IMG/VR virus record: IMGVR_UViG_2565956658_000004
Location: 1-64,000 of that record
Origin: a virus
Taxonomy: Duplodnaviria; Caudoviricetes
Direction: 5' to 3' (one strand)
DNA: 64,000 bases
Shown: positions 3,266-46,069 of the stretch, one piece after another
How the letters are laid out: every line of letters begins with the position of its first letter
Numbering within the stretch: position 1 is the stretch's first letter
Made by a program: the position numbers and the translations under genes
Notes under the pieces: model-generated
What the model saw: the letters and a program-made list of their open reading frames with translations, nothing else
Databases searched by the model: none
Told to the model about the DNA's origin: nothing

Positions 3266-3982
3266 TTAACCTGAGCGATAACGAACACGGCCAAAAACTT
3301 TGAATTGATTACCGTAGCTATCATCATAAAGTGGGGTGACAGTTTTATCTTTATAAGCCTTATTTCTTGGATGTAGCGTTAATACACCGCCTTGCTCTTT
3401 AAATATTTGCCTGATGAGTGCTTCTTTTTCAAAATAAATCGCATAGGTTTCTCCGTCCATAATTTCTGTATCCGAAGTATCTATTCCAACAGCATCACCA
3501 TCAAATAGATATTCTTCGTTACTATCACCTTTATTCATGATTAATTTGAAGTTTTGAGATTTTATATTGCGCTTTCGGAAAAAATCTGGCTCAAATGAAA
3601 GTTGTTTTTTTATTTCGTCAAAATGAAATTCAATAGATTCACCATCACCGCTACAAAAACGGACGTTATACATATTAATCCAAATCTTTTGGTCTCGCTC
3701 TTCTTGTGCTAAATCATCATGAGTAATTACGCTTGGAATACCATCAATAAATGCAGCTACTTTTTCCGCATTACTGGTATCTGTACCACCATTTAATAGC
3801 CAATTGGGTGTTGAATCTAAAGCTTTAGCGAGAGCCATTAAACTTTCATGTTTGGGTAGATTCTCGTCTTTTTCCCAATAAATTACAGATGTTTTTGATA
3901 CACCAACTACATCAGCTAATTGTTGCTGAGTTAATTTTTTTTCTTTGCGTAGTTTTTTAAGACGTATTCCTAAGGTTTCCAT
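3266..3982 (-). CDS. cI: CI-like repressor (XRE HTH plus S24-like domain); probable start METLG at 3982
   Basis: LTQQQLADVVGVSKTSVIYWE HTH; GDS motif; C-terminal GRVRY; divergent from cro. Confidence 0.9.
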   Translation of the reverse strand: METLGIRLKKLRKEKKLTQQQLADVVGVSKTSVIYWEKDENLPKHESLMALAKALDSTPNWLLNGGTDTSNAEKVAAFIDGIPSVITHDDLAQEERDQKIWINMYNVRFCSGDGESIEFHFDEIKKQLSFEPDFFRKRNIKSQNFKLIMNKGDSNEEYLFDGDAVGIDTSDTEIMDGETYAIYFEKEALIRQIFKEQGGVLTLHPRNKAYKDKTVTPLYDDSYGNQFKVFGRVRYRSG

Positions 3983-4003
3983 TACAAAACACCATTCTGC
4001 TAT

Positions 4004-4066
4004 GTAAGTAATCTTACCAATTGACAAGGTAAGTTTTATGCTATTTAATTTGGTAAGTTAAATTAC
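4004..4066 (+). promoter_or_regulatory. OR operators and PR promoter
   Basis: GTAAGTAATCTTAC (4004-4017), degenerate site 4029-4042, GTAAGTTAAATTAC (4053-4066); TTGACA(4021)-17-TTTAAT. Confidence 0.75.
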
Positions 4067-43038: not shown

Positions 43039-43446
43039 ATGAGTTTTAAGCCACAACATAGACTGAGTTATGCTCTCGAGCTTTATGATTCTGAATTTTC
43101 AGGTGAGGTACATAATCGATGTATCATTCATCAAGCATATTACGCAGCTTTGAATCAGGTTCAATACGAAATTGAGAATCGACTTTTTTTTATTGTTGAT
43201 GATGAGGATCGCAAAAAGCAGTCACACAAGGCGTTTATAGATGCCTGTGAAAATCAGTTGGGAAAATTGGTTGCTGGTGATGTCCGTAGACAATTGTTGG
43301 TCTCTATTGTCAATAACTTGCGTAGAGCAAAAAGACTGCGAGAAACTGCTGATTACAGATTAGATTCAAATATTGATAAAACCAGTGCTCAGGTTGCATT
43401 AAGACATGCTCAGGAAATATTTGATACTCTAGAGCAATTTGATTGA
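43039..43446 (+). CDS. HEPN-domain protein
   Basis: QAYYAA, SH and R-x2-ADY (RETADY) motifs. Confidence 0.8.
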   Translation: MSFKPQHRLSYALELYDSEFSGEVHNRCIIHQAYYAALNQVQYEIENRLFFIVDDEDRKKQSHKAFIDACENQLGKLVAGDVRRQLLVSIVNNLRRAKRLRETADYRLDSNIDKTSAQVALRHAQEIFDTLEQFD

Positions 43447-43473
43447 AAAAAAACCTGCAATTGCAGGGTTTTT
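43447..43473. terminator. Bidirectional terminator
   Basis: AAAAAAACCTGCAATTGCAGGGTTTTT between convergent genes. Confidence 0.7.
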
Positions 43474-43506
43474 AATAGTTGATTCGCAAGTCGAATGATG
43501 TCAACA

Positions 43507-44322
43507 CTATTTGATTTGATTCATGACACTTTGCACTTGTTCTTTAGTTAAAGGCTTCATTTTTTCATTCATACAAGCACTATAATCTTCAATAATCATA
43601 TTTTCTTGTTTAGTAATTAATTCATCTTTTAGACAACGATCCTTTTCACATTTACTGTTTCGCACTAGCTTCTTAAAATCATCATATCTTTTAGTATTCG
43701 CATTTTTGGTTTTTAAAATATTAAATAATTTCTCTGAGTAAGCTAAATATTTCTCTCTATTTCTAGGGTTTATAACTTGATCAGGGTCTTGTCCAATTAA
43801 CGAATGTAATAGATGCCCAAACTTAGGTGCATATGCTCTTTCTTGCTTTGAATTTAATTCTCCATCAGTATGGGCATATGCATCCGCATATGCATGTATC
43901 AATAGCCCCGCTTTCCATATATCTTCAGGATCTTTTAGGTTGTTTTTTATTGCATTTTCTATAGATTTTCTTCTAGTTTTAATATCCTCACTATTGCCAC
44001 CATGCAATGAGTGAAGTTTAGTTACTACATCGTTGGTAAATTCATTACTTGCAAAAGGAAACTTATTTTTAACTGCATTCACAATTGCATCGTATTTTTT
44101 ATAAGCATCAGGATATTGTGAGAAATAAGTTAACGCCATTGTATCTGAGATGTTTCTTCCAGCTATTCTAGATACCATATAAGATGTAGTTGAGTGCCCC
44201 ACGCTACTTGATTTATTAGTACTTGGAGCACATTCTATTACTGCATCGAAAGGACTTAGTTCACCAGCAAAGGCCGTTGAACTAAAAAGCGATAACAAGC
44301 TAAGTAAAAGAACTTTTTTCAT
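43507..44322 (-). CDS. Secreted protein with Zn-dependent phospholipase C/P1 nuclease-like motif
   Basis: Signal peptide MKKVLLL...AFA; SQYPD, LHSL, HAYADAYAH, GH...PD. Confidence 0.6.
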   Translation of the reverse strand: MKKVLLLSLLSLFSSTAFAGELSPFDAVIECAPSTNKSSSVGHSTTSYMVSRIAGRNISDTMALTYFSQYPDAYKKYDAIVNAVKNKFPFASNEFTNDVVTKLHSLHGGNSEDIKTRRKSIENAIKNNLKDPEDIWKAGLLIHAYADAYAHTDGELNSKQERAYAPKFGHLLHSLIGQDPDQVINPRNREKYLAYSEKLFNILKTKNANTKRYDDFKKLVRNSKCEKDRCLKDELITKQENMIIEDYSACMNEKMKPLTKEQVQSVMNQIK

Positions 44323-44415
44323 TTTTATTCCCCTTATGTATATAAAATTTAATAATAAACAGACATATGAGGGGAAAGTCAAACTTATTTTTCTGGCGCT
44401 TCTTTGCTTGCCTTA

Positions 44416-44503
44416 TTTCTAAATCATCTGTGAGATGAACAACCATGGGTAAATCGCAATCGTATTCAACAAACTTTTCTAAATCATCTATGCGATGAAC
44501 AAC
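44416..44503 (-). CRISPR. Type I-F mini-array: two 28-nt repeats and one 32-nt spacer, no cas genes
   Basis: Minus strand: GTTGTTCATCGCATAGATGATTTAGAAA, spacer AGTTTGTTGAATACGATTGCGATTTACCCATG, GTTGTTCATCTCACAGATGATTTAGAAA; TCATC/GATGA hairpin and TTTAGAAA handle. Confidence 0.9.
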
Positions 44504-44623
44504 TAGAGAAATCTAACAACAATCTCTCTAGCTTCATTAAGATAGCACAACTTTTGCTGTGCCACCTTTTTTTTGTACAGGTGGTTAATTCATTGTTTTC
44601 AATGAAATTAATTTAGCGACCAC
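44504..44623 (-). promoter_or_regulatory. Putative CRISPR leader
   Basis: Non-coding, AT-rich, abuts the consensus-like repeat; inverted repeats and IHF-like AAACAATGAATTA. Confidence 0.5.
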
Positions 44624-44642
44624 TTGCAGGGTTTTTTATCGA

Positions 44643-45527
44643 CTATTTGCCTCTAAAAAATTTTATCAATTCAGATTGTTTAAGGTGATAAGGGTAATCT
44701 TGCATTATCCTTGCATCTATTTCTTTAGTTCGTTCAACTCCTAAAGTCAAACTAGCTGAAAATGCCCCATCAGAAAAATGACTTTGGATATCTGATGCCA
44801 TTTTTGGATTGAGTAATCTGATCGAGTCTGAGTAACAAATCCACCATCTAGAAACCCACATCATATGTAACGCTGTATTATTTGCATGGCTCTCAAAGTT
44901 TGGGCTCTTCGATTGATATTTTTTTTCTGCATTGCTATACAGCGCAATCAAATGGTGAACATACTCAACTGCAACAGGAATTGATTCAAATGGGATTTCG
45001 TCAATGTGCTCAACATTGAAGCGCTGGTGAACAAGTTTATATGCATCGCTGTAACTTAAATGCTTGGTCTTAGCTACAAGCATGTTTACAGCATTGGTTA
45101 GCGGTTCTCGGTCAGATTTATGCGTTTTGGCTAAAAATTCCTTACGGACAAAATAGCAATCTTCAAGCTGCTCGAATACTTCCCAAGCTTGGTCAGTGTC
45201 GAGCATTTTAGCGTGTCGTGCTGCACCGCGTTCTGTCCAGAGGGTCAACACACGTGTTTTGGATGAAATTTGTGTGTGAATATTATTCACGAGCAAATCA
45301 TTTGTGAGTAGCTTTAAACTACTCACAAAATCTTTGAGTTCTTGGCCAGCAATTTTGAAGAAGTGTTTACCCTCAACAAAACGTTGTTTGTTGTTTGAAA
45401 AGTTTTTACGAATATTGTCTGTGTCGGTGCCATAGAAGCCGGAAAGCATTTCGGTAGTAATAACAGGAATGGATTTGAAGTTTATAATTGATACTTGCGT
45501 ATCATTGATTTGTGCTAAACTTGCCAT
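44643..45527 (-). CDS. ant: Phage antirepressor (ORF6N-type N-terminus, P22-Ant-like C-terminus)
   Basis: PVITTEMLSGFYG, RFVEGKHFF, LWTERGAARHAKMLDTDQAWEV; AGGA RBS before ATG 45527. Confidence 0.85.
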   Translation of the reverse strand: MASLAQINDTQVSIINFKSIPVITTEMLSGFYGTDTDNIRKNFSNNKQRFVEGKHFFKIAGQELKDFVSSLKLLTNDLLVNNIHTQISSKTRVLTLWTERGAARHAKMLDTDQAWEVFEQLEDCYFVRKEFLAKTHKSDREPLTNAVNMLVAKTKHLSYSDAYKLVHQRFNVEHIDEIPFESIPVAVEYVHHLIALYSNAEKKYQSKSPNFESHANNTALHMMWVSRWWICYSDSIRLLNPKMASDIQSHFSDGAFSASLTLGVERTKEIDARIMQDYPYHLKQSELIKFFRGK

Positions 45528-45597
45528 GTCAGTTTTCCTTGTTCGGAAGTTGATAACTAGCCCCATAAATCTTGGTCGAGGAGTGGGGCTTTTTTTT

Positions 45598-45661
45598 ATC
45601 CCCATTGGGGATGTATTTAATTTATAACCACAAAAACCTATTGTCAATCCCCAATGGGGAT
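45598..45661 (-). promoter_or_regulatory. Pant promoter flanked by two palindromic operators
   Basis: ATCCCCATTGGGGAT (45598-45612) and ATCCCCAATGGGGAT (45647-45661) bracket minus-strand TTGACA-17-TAAATT. Confidence 0.8.
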
Positions 45662-45706
45662 ATTACTATTAATTTAATAAATCGAAATTTTGTTAGAGAA
45701 ATAGAT

Positions 45707-46069
45707 ATGGCTAGAAATCTTGATGTTGAATACAAGATGCGTATGACGCAAGAGCTTAAGGAAAAGATTGTTGAATCAGCAAAATTTCATAACCGTTCTA
45801 TGAATGCTGATATTGTTGCGAGAATTGAACAAAGTTTTGAGCCTGATTTTTTTAAAATAACAAAATTGAATGACTTAGAAGAACCCGCAGCCTCCATCGA
45901 AATTGGTGCTATAACAATTGGTTTGTATGAATCTCAATACAAAGAGATCAAACTAACGCAACTAGGTCTTAATTATTGGCTCTTAAGTTACCATGCTGTT
46001 TTGTGTCATCTAAGAGATGAGAGTGCCAAGCAACTTATTGAGCTGGGTTGTGCCTACACCACATTGTAA
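45707..46069 (+). CDS. Arc/Mnt-family repressor
   Basis: YKMRMTQELKEKIVESAKFHNRSMNADIVARIE. Confidence 0.85.
   Translation: MARNLDVEYKMRMTQELKEKIVESAKFHNRSMNADIVARIEQSFEPDFFKITKLNDLEEPAASIEIGAITIGLYESQYKEIKLTQLGLNYWLLSYHAVLCHLRDESAKQLIELGCAYTTL

What the first reader, a model, noticed from the sequence alone, without database searches (positions are those of the whole stretch)
44416..44623. Phage-borne, cas-less type I-F mini-CRISPR array with leader
Seen: two 28-nt repeats (26/28 identical, both differences in the hairpin loop so the TCATC/GATGA stem and TTTAGAAA handle are kept) around an exactly 32-nt spacer. An AT-rich leader-like region lies on the side of the consensus-like repeat, and there are no cas genes in 64 kb. 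Established: 28/32 geometry with this hairpin and handle is type I-F, and the repeat closely resembles Acinetobacter I-F repeats. Inference: the phage borrows host Cas6f/Csy, either to target a competing element (the spacer reads FVEYDCDLPM in one frame, like coding DNA), to repress a promoter by partial pairing, or as an RNA anti-CRISPR decoy. It lies downstream of the antirepressor on the same strand, so it may be expressed at infection or induction. I found no self-match by eye, but the check was not exhaustive.
Basis: partly seen in the sequence, partly recalled or inferred. Interest (0 to 1): 0.9.

Follow-up and report, generated by a model that had tools for sequence, protein, structure and literature searches.

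The report
Prophage-borne cas-less I-F mini-CRISPR array
An Acinetobacter prophage carries a real two-repeat, one-spacer CRISPR array but no CRISPR protein genes, most likely to borrow a host's type I-F machinery against rival phages, which is a new example of an already described viral trick.

Summary
On the minus strand lie a leader, a 28-nt repeat (44503..44476), a 32-nt spacer (44475..44444) and a second repeat (44443..44416) that differs only at two loop bases. The proximal repeat is 28/28 identical to a repeat in an Acinetobacter chromosomal array beside csy genes, and 1 nt from long I-F arrays. Searches with four Cas families found nothing in the whole 104-kb provirus record.

A homologous cassette lies in a prophage of A. 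venetianus RAG-1. It shares 56/66 leader bases and has identical repeats but two other spacers, and that genome has a full I-F operon. One RAG-1 spacer matches a phage gene in another Acinetobacter genome 32/32 with a 5'-CC PAM. This supports the reading that such arrays lend guides to host Csy complexes against rival phages.

For the window's own spacer I found no target at 3 or fewer mismatches. Whether its lysogen has an I-F system is unknown, and expression is untested. The array sits 139 nt downstream of a P22 immI-like antirepressor gene.

Tests for a cas-promoter-silencing RNA (Cracr) were negative, and the element is not a solitary repeat (Racr). Verdict: a new member of a known kind. 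This scan has already noted cas-less phage mini-arrays on other DNA (8 listed).

The parts
44476..44503 (-). Leader-proximal repeat R2 (28 nt), consensus-like
   Evidence: It is 28/28 identical to all three repeats of the RAG-1 prophage mini-array, and 28/28 to one repeat of a chromosomal array in genome G096. It is 1 nt from the repeats of long arrays L014/L016.
44444..44475 (-). Single 32-nt spacer
   Evidence: No protospacer with 3 or fewer mismatches was found.
44416..44443 (-). Distal repeat R1 (28 nt). It has two substitutions, both in the 5-nt loop. It would supply the 3' hairpin of the only crRNA.
   Evidence: The hairpin forms in the predicted fold.
44424..44483 (-). Predicted mature 60-nt crRNA: 8-nt 5' handle from R2, the spacer, and the 20-nt hairpin part of R1. 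This is an inference.
   Evidence: Inferred from the established Cas6f cleavage position at the 3' base of the repeat stem (recalled knowledge), applied to the sequence read. Not tested.
44504..44569 (-). Conserved leader-proximal segment (66 nt). It includes a 13-bp hairpin (core 44545-44562) and ends in CTCTA at the repeat junction.
   Evidence: 56/66 bases are identical to the RAG-1 cassette, and this segment plus the array is the only part shared with that 8-kb locus. The hairpin appears in the fold, with base changes that keep pairing. Host leaders also end in CTCTA.
44570..44642 (-). Rest of the intergenic region between the antirepressor stop and the conserved leader. It is not conserved in RAG-1.
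   Evidence: The only sigma-70-like site is a weak one at 44669..44642.
44643..45527 (-). Antirepressor gene (ORF6N domain, phrog_2127), directly upstream and co-oriented with the array
   Evidence: Pfam ORF6N E=7e-19. phrog_2127 E=1e-67. The ATG and ribosome-binding site were read.
45598..45661 (-). Candidate P_ant: TTGACA at 45647..45642, a 17-nt spacer, TAAATT at 45624..45619. It is flanked by two 15-bp palindromes (45598-45612 and 45647-45661). It is the likeliest source of read-through transcripts into the array.
   Evidence: There are 2 palindrome copies, and 0 of 100 shuffles reached that number. That transcripts from here reach the array is inference.
45572..46069 (+). Divergent Arc/Mnt-like ribbon-helix-helix regulator (context; P22 immI-like)
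   Evidence: PDB AmrZ E=2.5e-5. Arc-like PHROGs.

Best explanation
This is a functional-looking, cas-less type I-F mini-CRISPR array carried as a small cassette (a conserved ~66-nt leader, two repeats and one spacer) in the accessory immI-like region of a temperate Acinetobacter phage. When the phage is in a cell that has a compatible I-F system, transcripts crossing the array would be cut by the host's Cas6f in both repeats. These transcripts probably read through from the antirepressor promoter. Cleavage would give one 60-nt crRNA that loads into the host Csy complex and directs Cas2-3 against DNA carrying the protospacer next to a 5'-CC PAM. The most likely targets are competing phages or prophages, so the array would act as guide-RNA-based exclusion of rivals. 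Shown: the anatomy, the repeat identity with host arrays, the absence of cas genes, the conserved cassette with different spacers in a second prophage whose host has an I-F operon, and a perfect PAM-flanked phage target for one of that relative's spacers. Inferred: transcription, processing, loading, interference, and the identity of the window spacer's target.
For: (1) Canonical geometry and more than chance. (2) R2 is 28/28 identical to a repeat in G096's chromosomal array that flanks csy1-csy2-csy3-cas6f-cas1-sized ORFs. It is 1 nt from the repeats of L014/L016 and L022. In A. calcoaceticus the neighbouring genes are Cas2-3, Csy2, Csy3, Cas6f and Cas1 by Pfam. (3) In 13 phage and host repeats, 60 of 60 stem cells pair. 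One stem pair changes on both sides (U-A to C-G) in 2 repeats of another phage mini-array. (4) Both substitutions in R1 fall in the loop. (5) The RAG-1 prophage holds the same cassette. The leader is 56/66 identical while the repeat is 28/28 identical. At the leader's rate, 28/28 has a probability of about 0.01. It has 3 repeats and 2 spacers, none shared with the window. All three RAG-1 repeats are identical, as expected after leader-end acquisition. (6) RAG-1 has Cas6f and ORFs the size of a full cas2-3/csy1-3/cas6f/cas1 operon. Its array repeats have the same stem and handle. (7) RAG-1 spacer 1 has a 32/32 match preceded by CC in genome G025. It has 3-mismatch matches in G025 and G039, so 3 of 247 genomes match when RAG-1's own array copy is counted. 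The target product hits phrog_7964 (5e-41), and its neighbours hit PHROGs 1984 and 1824, so it is a phage gene. RAG-1 has no second copy at 3 or fewer mismatches. (8) Four Cas families are absent from the 104-kb record. (9) The kind is described in print: viral mini-arrays carry host-identical repeats and mostly target related viruses (PMC11656645, passages read).
Against: No protospacer was found for the window's own spacer. INPHARED phages gave 15 records, all at E of 0.9 or worse. IMG/VR gave 0 exact matches and 0 for two codon-wobble patterns. JGI metagenomes gave 0 for both patterns. None of 247 Acinetobacter genomes matched at 3 or fewer mismatches. PLSDB gave only 26/32 matches. In the cassette family only 1 of 3 spacers has an identified target. 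None of 3 spacers of the L007 phage array hit the phage collection convincingly. Whether this prophage's host strain has any I-F system is unknown. No good sigma-70 promoter lies inside the leader. A stable hairpin sits between the antirepressor gene and the array, so expression is uncertain. If expression depends on P_ant, it would be shut off in a lysogen that makes the Arc-like repressor. R1 has T where 12 of 13 aligned repeats have G at the first loop base. R1 supplies the crRNA's Cas6f-binding hairpin, so processing could be weakened. Rfam recognised no CRISPR repeat family here.
Confidence: 0.55

Rival explanations
1. RNA counter-defence. The array is transcribed early with the antirepressor and acts against the host's I-F immunity. 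It could act as a competitor or decoy that fills Cas6f/Csy with a harmless guide (Racr-like). Or it could be a Cracr-type guide that makes Csy sit on a cas or creT promoter.
For: Phage RNAs that mimic I-F repeats inhibit I-F systems (PMC10651486, abstract and passages). Viral crRNA-like arrays that silence cas or creT promoters are reported, including one three-spacer array predicted against A. baumannii I-F loci (bioRxiv 10.1101/2024.10.29.618823, sections 7, 9 and 10). The position behind an early, repressor-gated antirepressor promoter would suit an infection-time function. No target was found for the spacer.
Against: It is not a solitary repeat. It has two repeats and a full-length 32-nt spacer, whereas the I-F Cracrs described are shorter than normal crRNAs. 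No CC-flanked PAM-proximal match of 9 or more was found for the window spacer, or for 6 other phage mini-array spacers, in 82.7 kb of ten I-F cas/array loci. None was found for the window spacer or the two RAG-1 spacers in RAG-1's own 16-kb I-F locus. No neighbour resembles a solved anti-CRISPR such as AcrIF24 by sequence (0 of 3 neighbours tested). The sister array holds a perfect, PAM-flanked phage protospacer match, which is the signature of a real guide. A. baumannii I-Fb-type loci were not among the loci tested.
Confidence: 0.2
2. Inert passenger in this host. It is a once-active cassette that now sits in a lysogen without a compatible I-F system, or whose target no longer exists. It would be kept only by linkage to the antirepressor module.
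For: No target was found. The distal repeat has begun to diverge. Only 12 of 247 Acinetobacter species genomes show long arrays of this repeat family (19 or more matches each), so most potential hosts lack the machinery. There is no promoter of its own.
Against: The proximal repeat is perfectly conserved against a leader that has diverged 15%. Both changes in R1 spare the stem, the cleavage site and the handle. The cassette is kept in two otherwise unrelated contexts, each with different spacers. A temperate phage meets many hosts, so absence of cas genes in one lysogen would not make the array useless.
Confidence: 0.17
3. Guide aimed at a bacterial chromosomal gene. The spacer pairs imperfectly with a conserved Acinetobacter gene for a secreted 677-aa protein. 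This would let Csy bind without cleavage (lysogenic conversion by CRISPR interference), or prime adaptation.
For: CC plus 26/32 identity occurs in 5 A. baumannii records. The same CC-flanked site has 22-26/32 matches in 16 of the 30 ortholog loci fetched, and 50 of 247 genomes have the gene region. Two of the six mismatches (positions 6 and 18) are at every-sixth positions that do not pair in type I complexes (recalled knowledge).
Against: The BLAST E-value is 9, so it is a chance-level score in that database. Position 4 in the seed is mismatched. Pairing is best at the PAM-distal end, the opposite of known regulatory crRNA-like RNAs. The peptide at the site is conserved in 28 of 120 homologues, and 0 of 120 have the version the spacer would encode. 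So the spacer was probably not taken from this gene.
Confidence: 0.06

Closest known systems
Virus-borne cas-less mini-CRISPR arrays of phages, prophages and archaeal viruses (survey by Faure et al. 2019 and the SPV1/SPV2 competition experiments of Medvedeva et al. 2019, as summarised in PMC11656645; I read passages of that review only)
   Same: One or two spacers, no cas genes, repeats identical or nearly identical to host arrays, and a sister array whose spacer targets another virus with a correct PAM.
   Different: Here the subtype is I-F of Acinetobacter. The cassette has its own conserved 66-nt leader unlike the host leader, and it sits beside an antirepressor gene. For the window's own spacer no related-virus target was found.
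Racr, RNA anti-CRISPRs made of solitary repeat units (Camara-Wilpert et al. 2023, PMC10651486; abstract and passages)
   Same: Phage-encoded mimic of an I-F repeat without cas genes. It would bind Cas6f.
   Different: Racrs are single repeats that form aberrant Cas6f-Cas7f subcomplexes. This element has two repeats around a full 32-nt spacer and should give a normal crRNA.
Cracr arrays, viral crRNA-like regulatory RNAs (Liu et al., bioRxiv 10.1101/2024.10.29.618823; outline and sections 7, 9, 10)
   Same: Cas-less arrays on phages that reuse host Cas proteins. The preprint includes I-F examples and one array predicted against A. baumannii loci.
   Different: [quoted passage not shown] None of these was found here.
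Acinetobacter I-F systems with two arrays ('I-Fa' of A. baumannii, also on the phage-plasmid PPTOP; Rubio et al. preprint 10.1101/2023.09.20.558655, passages)
   Same: The same repeat family. The loci I fetched have a divergent cas2-3, then csy1-3, cas6f, cas1, and arrays on both sides. The preprint says the two arrays' repeats differ at nucleotide 4, the position where the mini-array repeat (G) differs from L014/L016 (C).
   Different: Those are complete systems with cas genes and long arrays. Assigning the mini-array repeat to 'I-Fa' is my inference, because the repeat logo is a figure I could not see.
P22 immI region (mnt, arc, ant); recalled, not looked up
   Same: Divergent Arc/Mnt-like repressor and antirepressor genes, with palindromic operators around a near-consensus promoter.
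   Different: A CRISPR mini-array follows the antirepressor gene here.

Membership tests
Type I-F CRISPR array | 28-nt repeats separated by 32-nt spacers | tested here: met
   two 28-nt copies, 60-nt period.
Type I-F CRISPR array | Repeat folds into a 5-bp stem with a 5-nt loop, followed by an 8-nt 3' handle; the stem is conserved by covariation | tested here: met
   60 of 60 stem cells pair across 13 repeats, and one pair shows a change on both sides. The handle TTTAGAAA is intact in both window repeats.
Type I-F CRISPR array | Same repeat found in arrays adjacent to cas1, cas2-3, csy1-3 and cas6f | tested here: met
   identical or 1-3 nt different repeats beside Pfam-confirmed Csy2, Csy3, Cas6f, Cas1 and Cas2-3 in Acinetobacter genomes.
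Type I-F CRISPR array | Protospacers flanked by a 5'-CC PAM | tested here: inconclusive
   Met for the sister array (RAG-1 spacer 1: 32/32 match preceded by CC). The window spacer has no confirmed protospacer.
Virus-borne cas-less mini-CRISPR array | One or two spacers inside a viral or proviral genome | tested here: met
   The record is an IMG/VR provirus. Phage genes lie on both sides.
Virus-borne cas-less mini-CRISPR array | No cas genes on the element | tested here: met
   Cas6f, Csy3, Cas1 and the I-F Cas2-3 domain gave 0 matches in 103,936 bases. Other Cas families were not searched.
Virus-borne cas-less mini-CRISPR array | Repeats match the CRISPR system of the actual host | tested here: inconclusive
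   Met at genus level and for the sister prophage's host RAG-1. The window's own host genome was not available, because the record has no host flank.
Virus-borne cas-less mini-CRISPR array | Spacer targets a related or competing virus | tested here: inconclusive
   Window spacer: no target. Sister array: 1 of 2 spacers targets a phage gene.
Virus-borne cas-less mini-CRISPR array | Transcribed and processed by host Cas proteins into crRNA | not testable with these tools
The RNA runs listed hold only small shares of the stretch.
Racr (solitary repeat unit RNA anti-CRISPR) | A single repeat unit without a spacer-repeat partner | tested here: not met
   Two repeats and a full-length spacer.
Cracr (viral crRNA-like regulatory RNA) | [quoted passage not shown] | tested here: not met
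   No CC-flanked run of 9 or more in ten I-F loci (82.7 kb) or in RAG-1's 16-kb locus. This test is limited to the loci held, and I-Fb-type A. baumannii loci were not included.
Cracr (viral crRNA-like regulatory RNA) | Shortened spacer and degenerate repeats; frequent linkage to acrIF24 | tested here: not met
   The spacer is 32 nt and the repeats are near-canonical. 0 of 3 neighbouring proteins match any solved anti-CRISPR by sequence. This is a weak test for acrIF24.

The most novel reading that the evidence does not exclude
The antirepressor gene and the guide RNA form one infection-time operon, a two-pronged attack on resident or co-infecting rival prophages. The antirepressor would force the rival out of repression. 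The co-transcribed crRNA would make the host's own Csy/Cas2-3 cut the rival. The whole unit would be gated by the Arc/Mnt-like immI switch. In all 3 Acinetobacter phage mini-arrays I examined, a phrog_2127 antirepressor gene is the neighbour. This hints that the linkage is not accidental.
Probability: 0.12. Interest if true: 0.65.

Novelty: new member of a known kind. Interest (0 to 1): 0.35.

Why it matters
Cas-less mini-arrays show that phages use host adaptive immunity as a weapon against each other. This example adds a compact, leader-bearing I-F cassette in Acinetobacter prophages, a genus of clinical importance where I-F systems are themselves mobile. It also offers a tractable test case. 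A. venetianus RAG-1 is a cultured strain that has both the sister cassette and a complete I-F operon, together with a predicted perfect target. The recurrent placement beside antirepressor genes suggests that guide expression may be tied to the phage's secondary immunity switch, which can be tested. The principle itself is already in print, so the finding extends known biology and does not change it.

Tried and rejected
1. Host I-F status through sequencing runs. I laid contigs of two isolate runs that hold the locus (X1, X7) and of run X5 on the A. calcoaceticus-type I-F locus (L058:3500-13600) at 80% likeness or more. X1 and X7 gave only two tiny pieces (59 and 44 nt) from one contig each, which is no real cover. 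X5 behaves like a mixed sample, with low-depth fragments 85-90% alike. RAG-1-type loci are also only about 79% like this reference and would have been missed. So this is no evidence either way.

I could not reach the host contig that way.

3. The leader plus array (320 nt) against INPHARED phages gave no match. A leader pattern in IMG/VR found only the RAG-1 provirus.

4. Spacer searches that found nothing useful. RAG-1 spacers in IMG/VR found only themselves. Against phages they gave only weak hits. The 29/32 hit in Curvibacter phage P26059A falls in a hexapeptide-repeat gene and is likely a by-product of that repeat. L007 spacers against phages gave nothing convincing. I did not search the L007 and L003 spacers against the 247 Acinetobacter genomes.

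5. The 26/32 chromosomal near-match was followed through and remains unresolved (see rivals).

6. A homologue of the RAG-1 target gene or of the 677-aa chromosomal protein in the 104-kb record: none.

7. A conserved second leader hairpin next to the repeat is present in the window fold but is not kept in RAG-1 (read). I rejected it as a feature.

8. Literature searches for this specific Acinetobacter cassette listed no paper describing it. These searches cover only the held library, and supplementary tables (for example Tables S2 and S3 of the Cracr preprint) were closed.

Full report
**What is there.** Two 28-nt direct repeats lie at 44416-44443 and 44476-44503. They are 26/28 identical and 60 nt apart, so the spacer is exactly 32 nt. 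A degenerate pattern for the repeat with up to 3 mismatches finds only these two copies in the 64-kb window. None of 100 dinucleotide-preserving shuffles gave a hit. The 103,936-base IMG/VR provirus record to which the window belongs also holds only these two copies.

Read on the minus strand, each repeat begins GTT, has a TCATC/GATGA stem around a 5-nt loop, and ends TTTAGAAA. The order on that strand is:
- intergenic leader, 44642..44504
- repeat R2, 44503..44476
- spacer, 44475..44444
- repeat R1, 44443..44416

R1 differs from R2 at two loop bases only. Both hairpins form in the predicted fold of the region, whose z-score against shuffles is -4.3. Rfam recognised no repeat family here.

**Is it a type I-F repeat of Acinetobacter?** Yes, by comparison with sequences fetched here.
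- A scan of IMG/VR for the stem-and-handle pattern gave 15 stretches. They include long arrays whose repeat differs from R2 by one base (L014, L016), with 32-nt spacers throughout.
- A scan of species-representative genomes gave three Acinetobacter loci. All three genomes have Cas6f, with arrays of the same stem and handle next to it.
- In A. calcoaceticus the adjoining genes are Cas2-3, Csy2, Csy3, Cas6f and Cas1 by Pfam.
- In a scan of 247 Acinetobacter genomes with the leader-plus-array sequence, 12 genomes showed long arrays of this family. One of them (G096) contains a repeat 28/28 identical to R2, flanking ORFs of the same sizes as the csy operon.
- Across 13 phage-borne and host repeats, all 60 stem cells pair. 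One stem pair is changed on both sides in two repeats of another phage's mini-array.

A preprint on A. baumannii describes an 'I-Fa' system with two arrays whose repeats differ at nucleotide 4 (10.1101/2023.09.20.558655, passages). The loci I fetched have that layout. R2 differs from L014/L016 at exactly that position. Assigning R2 to 'I-Fa' is my inference, because I could not see their repeat logo.

**It is cas-less and phage-borne.** Six-frame searches for Cas6f, Csy3, Cas1 and the I-F Cas2-3 domain found nothing in the 104-kb record. The surroundings are phage genes:
- a CI-type repressor at 3266-4027
- a Panacea-domain protein and a weak HEPN-domain match
- a giant virion protein
- a second, Mu-like element in the last 40 kb

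There is no host flank, so the host strain's own CRISPR status could not be read from the record.

**Immediate context.** Directly upstream on the same strand is an antirepressor gene (44643..45527; ORF6N domain, phrog_2127). Its promoter region has:
- TTGACA, a 17-nt spacer and TAAATT (45647..45619, minus strand)
- two 15-bp palindromes flanking it
- a divergent gene that encodes an Arc/Mnt-like ribbon-helix-helix protein

This resembles the P22 immI switch (recalled).

Inside the 139-nt leader there is no good sigma-70 promoter, but there is a strong hairpin without a U-tract. The array is therefore most likely transcribed by read-through from the antirepressor promoter. This is inference. 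Downstream lies a gene for a secreted protein (weak DUF6765 match) with what looks by eye like its own promoter.

**A sister cassette.** A prophage of A. venetianus RAG-1 (L021, and the same DNA as IMG/VR L004) carries three repeats, each identical to R2, around two different 32-nt spacers. BLAST of that 8-kb locus against the 104-kb record aligns only the leader-proximal 66 nt and the array. The leader segment is 56/66 identical while the repeat is 28/28 identical. At the leader's rate of change, that repeat identity has a probability of about 0.01. The leader hairpin is kept through changes that preserve pairing. Both leaders end in CTCTA or CTATA at the repeat junction, as host leaders do. 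Otherwise they are unlike host leaders.

The RAG-1 cassette also follows an antirepressor gene of phrog_2127, although the two antirepressor proteins are not alike by BLASTP. A third phage (L007) has a four-repeat, three-spacer array that ends in a clear terminator. It lies next to a phrog_2127 antirepressor whose gene is 72% identical to the window's over 393 nt, and close to a tape-measure gene. A fourth record (L003) has a two-repeat array. Small I-F arrays are thus recurrent in Acinetobacter phages. In 3 of the 3 whose neighbourhood I examined, an antirepressor gene is adjacent.

**Evidence on function.** RAG-1 has Cas6f and ORFs matching a whole cas2-3/csy1-3/cas6f/cas1 operon, so its prophage array has machinery to use. 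Spacer 1 of that array has a 32/32 match in another Acinetobacter genome (G025), preceded by CC, the I-F PAM. It also has 3-mismatch matches in G025 and G039. Counting RAG-1's own array copy, 3 of 247 genomes match. The target is a gene of hexapeptide repeats. Its product hits phrog_7964 at 5e-41, and its neighbours hit other PHROGs, so it is a phage gene. RAG-1 has no second copy. Spacer 2 found nothing. This is the signature described for viral mini-arrays, which carry host repeats and guides against other viruses (PMC11656645, passages).

**The window's own spacer.** I found no protospacer.
- INPHARED phages: 15 records, none better than E = 0.9.
- IMG/VR: 0 exact matches, and 0 for two codon-wobble patterns.
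- JGI metagenomes: 0 for both patterns.
- 247 Acinetobacter genomes: 0 at 3 or fewer mismatches.
- The 104-kb record itself: nothing at 10 or fewer mismatches.

PLSDB gave one recurrent near-match, CC plus 26/32, in five A. baumannii records that are chromosome-sized. The same CC-flanked site has 22-26/32 matches in 16 of 30 fetched ortholog loci. It lies in a conserved gene for a secreted 677-aa protein of no known family.

Several points speak against that site as the source or target. The BLAST E-value is 9. Seed position 4 is mismatched. The peptide at that site is conserved in 28 of 120 homologues, and none has the version the spacer would encode. I leave it as unexplained and give the chromosomal-target reading a low probability.

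**Rival readings.** The array is not a solitary repeat unit of the Racr kind (PMC10651486), because it has two repeats and a full-length spacer. [quoted passage not shown] I tested each of these.
- No CC-flanked PAM-proximal match of 9 or more exists for the window spacer, or for six other phage mini-array spacers, in 82.7 kb of ten I-F loci.
- None exists for the window spacer or the two RAG-1 spacers in RAG-1's own 16-kb locus.
- The spacer is 32 nt.
- None of 3 neighbouring proteins resembles a solved anti-CRISPR by sequence.

A simple competitor or decoy effect cannot be excluded. The array could also be an inert passenger in its present lysogen.

**Limits.** Whether the lysogen has an I-F system is not known. 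Expression and processing are untested. Supplementary tables of the Cracr preprint, which may list Acinetobacter loci, were closed. Literature searches turned up no description of this particular cassette, but they cover only the held library.

**Verdict.** This is a real, cas-less I-F mini-array with a conserved leader. The guide-against-rivals option is favoured by the sister array, but the window's own target, its host machinery and its expression remain unshown. It is a new member of a known kind. This scan has already reported cas-less phage mini-arrays on other DNA. The antirepressor linkage and the RAG-1 test system are the most useful new points.

Noticed in passing
window 45572-46069 and 45598-45661: P22 immI-like switch. 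An Arc/Mnt-like RHH gene is divergent from the antirepressor gene. A near-consensus promoter (TTGACA, 17 nt, TAAATT) is bracketed by two exact 15-bp palindromes ATCCCCAWTGGGGAT.
   Followed up: partly
L007:3443-3650 (IMGVR_UViG_2531839355_000004): Another Acinetobacter phage mini-array with 4 repeats and 3 spacers of 32 nt. The stems vary with compensatory changes, and a rho-independent terminator follows. It lies downstream of an HTH regulator and is divergent from a phrog_2127 antirepressor. Its spacers had no convincing hit in the phage collection.
   Followed up: partly
L003:4076-4163 (IMGVR_UViG_3300012079_000099): A two-repeat, one-spacer I-F-like mini-array with degenerate repeat ends in a 36-kb viral contig. 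I did not examine its context or target.
   Followed up: no
L060:1-372, L061:1350-1952, L063: The target of RAG-1 spacer 1 is a phage gene made of tandem 18-nt (hexapeptide (D/N)A(Q/R/W)V(Y/S)G) repeats. One guide therefore has many near-matches per gene, each preceded by CC. The same motif gives 13 places in Curvibacter phage P26059A.
   Followed up: partly
L013:14-3880 and L020:19-4144: Long Acinetobacter arrays with unusually heterogeneous repeats. Positions 4-5 and the loop differ between neighbouring repeats, while the stem and handle stay fixed. Some spacer blocks are duplicated.
   Followed up: no
L014, L016, L009/L013 (IMG/VR records): Records classed as proviruses contain long host-type CRISPR arrays with host-type leaders, and in L016 the end of the cas operon. 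Host CRISPR loci therefore sit inside virus calls.
   Followed up: no
L024:5669-9545 (record bases about 89.7-93.5 kb): The 104-kb provirus record holds a second, Mu-like element (rve transposase and an AAA_22 MuB-like ATPase). The record is therefore at least two prophages side by side.
   Followed up: no
L018:4948-6981 and orthologues L067-L082: A conserved Acinetobacter gene for a secreted 677-aa protein of no known family, in a cluster with DUF6160 proteins. It carries a CC-flanked site with 22-26/32 matches to the window spacer in 16 species.
   Followed up: partly
window 43507-44322: A secreted protein gene (weak DUF6765 match, no PDB relative by sequence) starts about 95 nt downstream of the array on the same strand, with a TTGACT-type promoter-like site of its own that I saw by eye. 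If transcripts cross the array, Cas6f cleavage would also trim its mRNA leader. I did not test this.
   Followed up: no
window 43400-45700: Most sampled words of this stretch also occur in contigs of wastewater and freshwater metagenome runs from several studies (shares 0.40-0.75).
   Followed up: no
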